Source: a virus (taxonomy: Duplodnaviria; Heunggongvirae; Uroviricota; Caudoviricetes). From it: a stretch of 11,785 nt of DNA. This document shows positions 4,895-5,635 of this stretch, in pieces; position 1 is the stretch's first letter, and every line of letters begins with the position of its first letter. The position numbers and the translations under genes were made by a program. The DNA lies in the IMG/VR virus record IMGVR_UViG_2695420889_000011, positions 1-11,785 of that record; one strand, 5' to 3'. Below the pieces are notes generated by a model, which saw nothing but the letters and a program-made list of their open reading frames with translations, was not told the origin of the DNA and did no database searches.

Positions 4895-5635
4895 ATGGAA
4901 AAGCTATTAGACGCGTACAAACGGATATTGCAGGAAGTTAACGCCCAGTCATTTAACCTGAATGAGGATAAATACTCAGGCGTCTTTTTACCCGTGCCGT
5001 TTGAAGAATACTGGCATTCACCGATAAAAATCATGCTGGTTGGACGTGAAACCGCAGGCTGGAATACGCTGAATGGTAAGAATACGATATCACGGGTGTT
5101 GGGACTTATACCTGACGTCACCATCGGGCAAGTGGTTGAAGAAGCTGTAGATCGTTACAGGAAACATCTTCCGGTACAAAATTATGGCACCGCCAACCTC
5201 AAATCACGTAGCCGCTTCACGCAATATCATTTCAGGCTGGCCCGGGAGCTTAATATTCTTCCCCAGGCAATCGTGTATGCCAATCTACTGGCGTGGGATT
5301 ACGACGGACTGACCCCTCTCAATCGCCCTCAAAATGAAGTGCAGGAAGTCATATTAGCCTCGCTGAAGCTACTGGCGGTACAAATTAAACACCTTGAGCC
5401 TGATTTCATCATCTTTGCATCTGGAGCCCGGAGAACAGACTACATCATAAAACAGGTGCTTACTGAGCTAGGCGGCTATGAGACTTCTTCAGTCATTCCG
5501 GGGAAGCTGTGGGAGTTCAAAACAGGTAATACAATCTGTTTCAGAATTGCCCATCCAAGGGCTATGCGCGGACACCAGAAGTACAGAGATGAGGTGATTG
5601 CACGAATTAAGCAACTTTGTACTCAGGGTGGCTAG
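4895..5635 (+). CDS. Hypothetical protein (246 aa); possible divergent uracil-DNA glycosylase superfamily member
   Basis: Intact ORF with AGGA 7 nt upstream of the ATG. Motif order resembles the UDG fold: IMLVGRETAGW (res 46-56, where family-4 UDGs have LVGE[AG]PG), FIIFASGA (171-178) and RIAHPRAMRG (218-227, where UDGs have HPSxxxR). Motif A is atypical (no Pro) and there is no four-Cys cluster, so the assignment is tentative. Confidence 0.5.
   Translation: MEKLLDAYKRILQEVNAQSFNLNEDKYSGVFLPVPFEEYWHSPIKIMLVGRETAGWNTLNGKNTISRVLGLIPDVTIGQVVEEAVDRYRKHLPVQNYGTANLKSRSRFTQYHFRLARELNILPQAIVYANLLAWDYDGLTPLNRPQNEVQEVILASLKLLAVQIKHLEPDFIIFASGARRTDYIIKQVLTELGGYETSSVIPGKLWEFKTGNTICFRIAHPRAMRGHQKYRDEVIARIKQLCTQGG

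What the first reader, a model, noticed from the sequence alone, without database searches (positions are those of the whole stretch)
4895..5635. Divergent UDG-like protein with an atypical motif A (GRETAG instead of GE[AG]PG)
The 246-aa protein has the motif order and spacing expected for the uracil-DNA glycosylase fold (beta-strand plus glycine-rich motif, internal FIIFASGA strand, C-terminal HP-xxx-R motif). It lacks the Pro of motif A and the Fe-S cysteines of family-4 enzymes. It could be a new UDG subfamily or a UDG-fold protein with different specificity, linked to the polymerase as a repair or anti-restriction accessory.
Basis: partly seen in the sequence, partly recalled or inferred. 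Interest (0 to 1): 0.5.

Follow-up and report, generated by a model that had tools for sequence, protein, structure and literature searches.

The report
Divergent uracil-glycosylase-fold gene on pipolin edge
The 246-residue protein has the uracil-DNA-glycosylase fold but fits none of the characterised families; it is the gene pipolin papers already call "UDG", and its relatives mostly sit in phage-defence islands rather than beside the element's polymerase.

Summary
The ORF at 4895-5635 (+) is real. It is annotated in RefSeq as a hypothetical protein and is under purifying selection (dN/dS 0.08-0.3).

A confident AlphaFold model (pLDDT 90) matches only UDG-superfamily structures at the top. 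Profile comparisons place GRET(50-53), N130 and H220-P221 on motif A, the base-reading Asn and motif B.

It is not a family-4 enzyme: there is no GE[AG]PG motif and no four-Cys Fe-S set. It represents a separate, uncharacterised UDG-superfamily family with the signature G-[RKQ]-E-[TP]-x-G-W ... N ... H-P.

The window is a degraded E. coli pipolin. Pipolin papers already list this gene as a "type-4 UDG" on HHpred evidence, so the basic annotation is not new.

The link to the polymerase is weak. The gene is in 531 of 5426 complete E. coli genomes, piPolB in 294. More distant relatives lack piPolB and lie beside GmrSD, Mrr, type I R-M, Zorya and ADP-ribosyl glycohydrolase genes, often with a conserved 109-aa partner.

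Most likely it is an active glycosylase for uracil-type bases, used Brig-like in defence. This is inferred, not shown.

The parts
4895..5635 (+). ORF of 246 aa plus stop: a UDG-superfamily protein of an uncharacterised family (WP_022581686.1)
4884..4887 (+). AGGA Shine-Dalgarno-like site, 7 nt upstream of the ATG
   Evidence: read from the sequence
5042..5068 (+). Motif A after strand beta1: G50-R-E52-T53-A-G-W56-N-T. In 109 relatives G50 is kept in 109, E52 in 108 and W56 in 107; position 53 is T in 91 and P in 11. Profile alignment places it on G-E-A-P-G of family 4, which puts E52 at the third motif position
5204..5227 (+). Conserved SRSRF108xQY at the start of the helix after a family-specific insertion of about 50 residues. 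F108 (101/109) is a candidate base-stacking aromatic; the mapping is not resolved
5270..5302 (+). Strand beta2 ending in N130 (106/109). It aligns with the invariant Asn of family-4 TNVVKCRPP (N82 of S. tokodaii UDG), which reads the Watson-Crick face of uracil
5405..5428 (+). Strand beta3 FIIFASGA (F174 108/109, G177 99/109), aligned with the 'IVTLG' strand of family 4
5534..5575 (+). Strand beta4 plus motif B: I-C-F-R217-I-A-H220-P221-R-A-M-R-G-H. R217, H220 and P221 are each kept in 107/109. H220-P221 aligns with HPAA of family 4
4266..4844 (-). Divergently oriented remnant (N-terminal arm-binding domain only) of the pipolin IntSXT-type integrase. It is intact in canonical pipolins
5878..5932 (-). 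The 3' 55 nt of tRNA-Leu(UAA) leuZ. This marks the leuZ-proximal end of the pipolin; the rest of the tRNA is displaced by a P2-like prophage
1871..4426 (+). piPolB-type family-B DNA polymerase gene. Its 3' end is lost in a 5.8-kb deletion whose junction is at about 4341

Best explanation
[quoted passage not shown] It belongs to its own uncharacterised family, with no Fe-S cluster, motif A G-[RKQ]-E-[TP]-x-G-W, a base-reading Asn at the end of beta2, and motif B H-P.

Inferred mechanism: a pyrimidine is flipped into the pocket. N130 reads a uracil-type face (O4/N3-H), so the substrate would be uracil or a 5-substituted uracil rather than a cytosine derivative. E52 sits at the third position of motif A, where family 1 has its catalytic Asp and families 2 and 3 an Asn, and would activate or position the water. 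H220 would stabilise the leaving base. The product is an abasic site.

Biologically it is a stand-alone cargo gene at the leuZ-proximal edge of enterobacterial pipolins, not an obligate partner of piPolB. Its most likely use is Brig-like base-excision defence against incoming DNA that carries non-canonical pyrimidines.

Shown here: the fold, the motif mapping, residue conservation, purifying selection and the genomic distribution. Inferred: catalytic activity, substrate and defence role. Rough sub-confidences: UDG-fold glycosylase 0.85; distinct from families 1-5 and UdgX 0.8; independent of piPolB 0.7; defence role 0.45.

For: Sequence link. A 109-sequence family profile hits S. tokodaii UDG 4zbx at E 5.6e-6. 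hhalign against a family-4 alignment gives E 6.5e-5 over 143 columns. 37 of 109 relatives hit Pfam UDG, best 8e-7.

Catalytic positions are kept across relatives down to about 23% identity: G50 109/109, E52 108, W56 107, F108 101, N130 106, H220 107, P221 107. dN/dS is 0.08-0.32.

Independence from piPolB. The gene is in 531 and piPolB in 294 of 5426 complete E. coli genomes. TUM2330 keeps the gene next to leuZ with a truncated integrase and an HNH+AAA pair but no piPolB. In this window the gene is intact while piPolB, both recombinases and hsdM are damaged.

Defence neighbourhoods of relatives:
- Mrr plus type I R-M in Proteus.
- Mrr_cat plus PDDEXK_4 in Pectobacterium.
- GmrSD pairs in Marinobacter and Intestinirhabdus.
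- ADP-ribosyl glycohydrolase, then the 113-aa gene, then the UDG-like gene, beside BrxR and Zorya.
- Tn7-like cargo.
- GmrSD_N is the most frequent Pfam family among 146 neighbours.

An adjacent ADP-ribosyl glycohydrolase is also reported for Brig1 and Brig3.
Against: - No activity data exist for any family member.
- The window protein gives no direct hit in Pfam, NCBIfam or PADLOC, and hhalign probability against family 4 is only 64%.
- Motif A lacks the near-universal Pro (T53).
- The stacking aromatic could not be placed because no 3D superposition was possible.
- There is no sequence similarity to Brig1. Brig2 and Brig3 sequences could not be obtained.
- Some relatives sit in conserved housekeeping surroundings (an AI-2E transporter and the SCO1/cox cluster), which fits a repair role as well as a defence role.
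- The defence role rests only on guilt by association.
- The E. coli copies lack the 109-aa partner and the ADP-ribosyl glycohydrolase.
Confidence: 0.5

Rival explanations
1. It is an ordinary uracil-repair glycosylase that serves the pipolin's own replication. It removes uracil from element DNA, and piPolB, which bypasses abasic sites, copies across the product. This is the reader's 'repair accessory' reading and the implicit reading of the pipolin papers.
For: The gene is present in 95% of E. coli pipolins and is labelled UDG there. N130 is of the uracil-reading type. piPolB performs translesion synthesis across abasic-site analogues (PMC5695915). The gene sits in the conserved, leuZ-proximal part of canonical pipolins.
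Against: The gene occurs in 531 E. coli genomes against 294 with piPolB and survives in islands without piPolB. Most of the family's diversity lies outside pipolins. E. coli already has Ung and Mug (established knowledge). The gene is divergent from the integrase and not in an operon with piPolB.
Confidence: 0.25
2. It is a toxin-like or abortive-infection glycosylase that damages DNA when released from a small inhibitor. In other Gammaproteobacteria the conserved 109-aa upstream protein would be the immunity or antitoxin partner. The E. coli pipolin copy has lost the partner and is either attenuated or regulated in another way.
Confidence: 0.1
3. It is a catalytically irrelevant UDG-fold DNA-binding subunit that acts as a polymerase accessory, for example a processivity factor, as vaccinia D4 does for the E9 polymerase or the UDG-like domain does in some phage family-A polymerases.
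Against: Active-site-equivalent residues are nearly invariant across the family. Most relatives have no polymerase nearby. Many E. coli genomes have the gene without piPolB.
Confidence: 0.07

Closest known systems
Family 4 UDG (UDGa; S. tokodaii 4ZBX/4ZBY, T. maritima 1L9G, T. thermophilus 1UI0)
   Same: Best structural and profile match. Shared features are the same beta1/motif A, beta2-Asn, beta3, beta-hairpin, and beta4/H-P arrangement.
   Different: No GE[AG]PG motif: here it is G-R-E-T-A-G, with the acid at position 3 rather than 2 and Thr in place of Pro. None of the four Fe-S cysteines is present; S156 and W134 occupy two of their aligned positions. There is an insertion of about 50 residues after motif A and an extra N-terminal conserved segment. 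Identity is 12-16%.
SMUG1 / SMUG2 (family 3)
   Different: The motifs GMNPG and HPSPRN are not present. No sequence-level match was found.
Family 1 UNG
   Same: An acidic residue at the third position of motif A (Asp in GQDPY; E52 here), an Asn base reader and a motif-B His.
Brig1, Brig2 and Brig3 anti-phage DNA glycosylases (UDG superfamily)
   Same: They are divergent UDG-fold proteins annotated as hypothetical, carried in defence islands or mobile elements. Brig1's closest structure is also 4ZBY. ADP-ribosyl glycohydrolase genes lie next to Brig1, Brig3 and several relatives of this protein. Brig3 has an overlapping partner gene, as the 109-aa ORF is here.
   Different: There is no detectable sequence similarity to Brig1. 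Brig1 and Brig3 read cytosine derivatives with Glu/Asp where this family keeps Asn. BapA is a two-barrel ASCH protein of more than 250 aa, unlike p109.
Pipolin 'UDG' (gene group_1 of Flament-Simon et al. 2020; UDG of ExplorePipolin)
   Same: Same element type, the same position at the att/leuZ end next to a tyrosine recombinase, and the same best homologue (S. tokodaii UDG).
   Different: The papers call it 'type-4'. The family-4 defining features were tested here and are not met.

Membership tests
UDG superfamily (fold level) | alpha/beta fold with a central parallel sheet; motif A after beta1 and motif B after beta4 | tested here: met
UDG superfamily (Pfam PF03167) | Score above the Pfam gathering threshold | tested here: inconclusive
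   No hit for the window protein even at E<=10. 17 of 40 close and 37 of 109 distant relatives give weak hits, best 8.3e-7.
Family 4 UDG (UDGa) | Motif A GE[AG]PG | tested here: not met
   The sequence is G50-R-E-T-A-G55. The family consensus is G-[RKQ]-E-[TP]-x-G-W, against the GEAPG consensus of the family-4 alignment.
Family 4 UDG (UDGa) | Four conserved Cys ligands of a 4Fe-4S cluster | tested here: not met
   There are only two Cys, C215 and C242. Only two columns of the 109-sequence alignment reach 50% Cys or more. The family-4 Cys positions C81 and C97 align with W134 and S156.
Family 4 UDG (UDGa) | Asn at the end of beta2 and H-P in motif B | tested here: met
   N130 and H220-P221 align with the family-4 invariants.
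Family 5 UDG (UDGb) and UdgX | GLAPA or GEQPG motif A plus an Fe-S cluster (and the KRRIH loop for UdgX) | tested here: not met
Family 1 UNG | GQDPYH and HPSPLS motifs | tested here: not met
   Neither motif is in the sequence. No PDB sequence hit.
Family 2 MUG/TDG and family 3 SMUG1 | GINPG/NPSGLS or GMNPG/HPSPRN motifs | tested here: not met
Brig1 family | Sequence homology to Brig1 | tested here: not met
   hhalign probability 0.1% and BLASTP E 2.2. The Brig1 sequence was taken from a machine-read PDF supplement.
Brig2 and Brig3 families | Sequence or structure homology to Brig2 or Brig3 | not testable with these tools
   The sequences are not in the held text. No such structure appeared among the PDB matches.
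Pipolin core 'UDG' gene | Gene at the att/tRNA-Leu end of an E. coli pipolin, next to a tyrosine recombinase, with S. tokodaii UDG as best remote homologue | tested here: met
Anti-phage defence gene (functional class) | Protection against phage when expressed | not testable with these tools
   Only neighbourhood evidence is available.

The most novel reading that the evidence does not exclude
This is a previously unrecognised family of base-excision defence enzymes, Brig-like but keeping an Asn base reader and therefore aimed at uracil or hypermodified-thymine DNA. It is carried by about 10% of E. coli genomes at the leuZ island or pipolin edge. In other Gammaproteobacteria it is sold as a cassette with a 109-aa partner and often an ADP-ribosyl glycohydrolase, next to type IV restriction enzymes.
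Probability: 0.35. Interest if true: 0.65.

Novelty: new variant of a known kind. Interest (0 to 1): 0.4.

Why it matters
If the protein is an active glycosylase with a non-uracil or modified-base specificity, it would add a fourth sequence family to the recently found defence glycosylases (Brig1-3, Dag). This one is common in E. coli and easy to test with existing phage panels.

It would also correct the 'type-4 UDG' label used for pipolins. It would show that one of the most conserved pipolin genes is a self-standing cargo or defence gene rather than part of the replication module. If it is only a redundant uracil glycosylase, the finding is ordinary.

Tried and rejected
- Direct family scans of the window protein found nothing useful: Pfam, NCBIfam and PADLOC gave no hit, and PHROGs gave only an unknown-function family.
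- phmmer and a close-family profile against PDB sequences gave no meaningful hit. Only the broadened profile reached 4zbx.
- Brig1 comparison showed no similarity.
- Attempts to obtain Brig2 and Brig3 sequences or accession lists from the papers failed; the tables are truncated or are images.
- A search of phage genomes found no match. The six IMG/VR 'viral' hits are prophage calls that span the adjacent P2-like prophage and the pipolin edge, so the gene is not phage-borne. This also explains the PHROG hit.
- The promoter and terminator scan around the gene found nothing above shuffled expectation.
- No long direct (att) repeats were found within the 35.8-kb locus.
- ARAGORN finds no tRNA in the window because only the 3' half of leuZ remains.

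Full report

The window is E. coli 99-3311 chromosome, a 100% match over all 11,785 bases. The ORF at 4895-5635 (+), 246 aa, is listed exactly there. It is annotated in RefSeq as WP_022581686.1 'hypothetical protein'. An AGGA site lies 7 nt upstream of the ATG.

There are only two cysteines, C215 and C242.

The gene is clearly functional. There are 186 homologues at E<=1e-3 in the word-indexed search and 476 representatives in the exhaustive search. dN/dS against orthologues of 66-98% identity is 0.08-0.32.

**2. Fold and motif mapping**

Direct scans of the window protein gave nothing in Pfam, NCBIfam or PADLOC. They gave only an unknown-function PHROG. phmmer and a close-family profile found nothing credible in PDB sequences.

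An AlphaFold2 model built on 40 homologues is confident, with pLDDT 90.3 and pTM 0.90.
- Foldseek against the PDB returns 41 hits at E<=1e-3, all UDG superfamily, led by S. tokodaii family-4 UDG 4zby at E 8e-6.

I then widened the family with the exhaustive search to 109 sequences, down to about 23% identity (alignment A2).
- The widened profile hits 4zbx at E 5.6e-6.
- 37 of the 109 members touch Pfam UDG, best 8.3e-7.
- hhalign against a 36-sequence family-4 alignment gives E 6.5e-5 and probability 64% over 143 columns.

These alignments, together with the secondary structure of the model, agree on the mapping:
- beta1 (46-50) is followed by G50-R-E-T-A-G, aligned on G-E-A-P-G.
- beta2 (126-130) ends in N130, aligned on the invariant family-4 Asn. 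This is N82 of S. tokodaii UDG, the residue that reads the Watson-Crick face of uracil.
- beta3 is FIIFASG.
- beta4 (213-218) is followed by H220-P221, aligned on HPAA.

**3. Which family?**

Across the 109 relatives the candidate catalytic positions are nearly invariant: G50 109/109, E52 108, W56 107, F108 101, N130 106, S156 109, R217 107, H220 107, P221 107. Position 53 is Thr in 91 and Pro in 11, which ties G-x-E-[T/P] to the canonical G-x-[D/N]-P register.

The acid is therefore at motif position 3, as the Asp is in family 1. It is not at position 2, where family 4 has its Glu.

Only two alignment columns reach 50% Cys. The family-4 cluster ligands align with W134 and S156. The defining features of family 4, the motif and the Fe-S cluster, were tested and are not met. 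The same holds for families 1, 2, 3, 5 and UdgX at the motif level.

There is also an insertion of about 50 residues between motif A and the next core helix, and a conserved N-terminal segment DKYSGVFLP.

I conclude that this is a separate, uncharacterised family within the UDG superfamily. The retained residues argue that it is an active enzyme, and the Asn argues for a uracil-type base rather than a cytosine derivative. Brig1 and Brig3 use Glu/Asp at that position for cytosine derivatives. The substrate call is an inference.

**4. What the element is**

The left part of the window is a pipolin:
- an IS3 end;
- a truncated XerC-like recombinase (65-985);
- a conserved 212-aa protein;
- piPolB (1871-4426);
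- an integrase remnant on the minus strand (4266-4844);
- the UDG-like gene;
- the 3' 55 nt of tRNA-Leu leuZ (5878-5932).

From 6039 onward a P2-like prophage follows.

Comparison with canonical pipolins (ETEC H10407 and T16R) shows a 5.8-kb deletion with its junction at about window 4341. It removed the last ~43 codons of piPolB, the WYL, DUF726 and DUF2787 genes, and most of the IntSXT integrase.

In the canonical element the order is IntSXT (-) | UDG-like (+) | leuZ-cysT-glyW | pgsA-uvrC-uvrY.

**5. What is already known**

Pipolin papers already list this gene. Redrejo-Rodriguez et al. 2017 mention uracil-DNA glycosylases in pipolins. Flament-Simon et al. [quoted passage not shown] Their Table S3 lists it in 87 of 92 pipolins with HHpred best hit Q96YD0, which is S. 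tokodaii UDG. ExplorePipolin colours it as UDG, and the 2024 NAR paper uses it as a phylogenetic marker.

I found no biochemical or phenotypic study of it. The basic annotation is therefore not new. What is new here is that the 'type-4' label fails its defining tests, and that the family's distribution points away from the polymerase.

**6. Distribution and neighbourhood**

In complete E. coli genomes the gene is found in 531 of 5426, always on the chromosome. A 2.4-kb piPolB query is found in 294. Strain TUM2330 keeps the gene beside leuZ with a truncated integrase and an HNH+AAA pair, but has no piPolB.

A scan of 185,579 species genomes gave 56 loci, which fall into three identity bands:
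- Copies of at least 93% identity (Escherichia, Enterobacter, Citrobacter, Buttiauxella, Franconibacter) lie next to IntSXT, with piPolB within 10 kb where the contig allows; so does the 78%-identity Shimwellia copy.
- Copies of 68-87% identity (Pectobacterium, Kosakonia, Erwinia mediterraneensis, Intestinirhabdus) have neither.
- Copies of about 50-58% identity (Marinobacter, Halopseudomonas, Pseudoalteromonas, Stutzerimonas, Methylotuvimicrobium and others) are preceded, in at least 23 loci, by a conserved 109-113-aa ORF that is often overlapping.

Annotated neighbourhoods of these relatives include:
- Mrr plus a type I R-M system in Proteus.
- Mrr_cat plus PDDEXK_4 in Pectobacterium.
- Two GmrSD-type genes in Marinobacter and in Intestinirhabdus.
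- A WYL regulator, then ADP-ribosyl glycohydrolase, the 113-aa gene and the UDG-like gene, beside BrxR and a Zorya system, in a widespread marine Pseudomonas lineage.
- A NERD/helicase cluster in Marinobacter.
- Tn7-like cargo in Pseudoalteromonas.
- IS-flanked positions on plasmids.

Among 146 neighbours within three genes in 28 non-pipolin loci, the most frequent Pfam families are GmrSD_N (4), ADP_ribosyl_GH (3), WYL/WCX (3) and AAA_21 (3). PADLOC models for type I methyltransferases, AriA, HEC-06 and others are also hit.

An adjacent ADP-ribosyl glycohydrolase is a reported feature of the Brig1 and Brig3 loci. Brig3 also has an overlapping partner gene.

Against this, a few relatives sit in a conserved housekeeping context, between an AI-2E transporter and the SCO1/cox cluster. 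The E. coli copies lack both the small partner and the glycohydrolase.

**7. The 109-aa partner**

It has no Pfam family, and all its homologues are hypothetical proteins of Gammaproteobacteria. Its AF2 model is confident, pLDDT 92.9.

**8. Relation to the known defence glycosylases**

The Brig1 sequence, taken from the paper's supplement, shows no similarity to the protein or to its profile. Brig2 and Brig3 sequences could not be retrieved, so membership of those families remains untested. This is the main gap in the novelty call.

**9. Verdict**

The best-supported account is an active, Fe-S-free UDG-superfamily glycosylase for a uracil-type base. It is carried as a self-standing cargo gene, and its family habitually lives among modification-dependent restriction systems. 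A Brig-like defence role is therefore somewhat more likely than a repair role for the element.

A repair role remains a serious rival, because piPolB bypasses abasic sites. All functional statements are inferences. The experiments listed under next steps are simple and would decide between the readings.

Noticed in passing
window 4266-4426 (junction at about 4341): A 5.8-kb deletion relative to canonical pipolins fuses piPolB, minus its last ~43 codons, to the antisense of the IntSXT integrase N-terminus. The annotated 851-aa polymerase therefore ends in a foreign tail, and the WYL, DUF726 and DUF2787 core genes are missing.
   Followed up: yes
window 1-985: The end of an IS3-family transposase (1-207) abuts and truncates the left XerC/IntP2-like recombinase (65-985), which is 376 aa in ETEC H10407. 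hsdM just outside the window is a pseudogene. The element looks immobilised, yet the UDG-like ORF is intact.
   Followed up: partly
window 5878-5932 and 6039-7040: Only the 3' 55 nt of tRNA-Leu leuZ remain next to the gene. A P2-like prophage, with its integrase at 6039-7040 (-), is inserted there. The same arrangement occurs in ETEC H10407. It causes IMG/VR and PHROGs to count the UDG-like gene as 'viral'.
   Followed up: yes
window 11387-11584: Rfam finds isrK (11387-11461, 58 bits) and C4 antisense RNA (11497-11584, 76 bits) inside the P2-like prophage.
   Followed up: no
window 1183-1821: A 212-aa protein directly upstream of piPolB is conserved in pipolins (94% in another E. coli, 34-36% in Enterobacter and Buttiauxella). 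It has no hit in Pfam, NCBIfam, PHROGs or PADLOC.
   Followed up: partly
L002:9672-10001, L008:9657-9986, L075:9647-9988 (not in the window): A conserved 109-113-aa ORF lies immediately upstream of the UDG-like gene in at least 23 non-enterobacterial loci. It has a confident small alpha/beta model with weak resemblance to DUF600/EsaG immunity proteins. It is often accompanied by an ADP-ribosyl glycohydrolase, either upstream or downstream.
   Followed up: partly
window 7046-8493: Next to the P2-like integrase lie three genes: a DUF2511 protein (7046-7393, -), a 216-aa protein with a C-terminal hydrophobic stretch that RefSeq calls a membrane protein in ETEC H10407 (7423-8073, -), and an HTH protein (8089-8493, -). 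These could be prophage accessory or moron genes; their function was not examined.
   Followed up: no
L078 (E. coli TUM2330) 12082-14018: A remnant leuZ island without piPolB carries an AAA ATPase plus HNH endonuclease pair. From memory this resembles a Septu-like layout; this was not tested. The pair sits beside the truncated integrase and the UDG-like gene.
   Followed up: no
window 5598-5954: The 118-aa ORF listed here overlaps the tRNA-Leu fragment and an intergenic hairpin. It is not annotated in RefSeq and is most likely spurious.
   Followed up: partly
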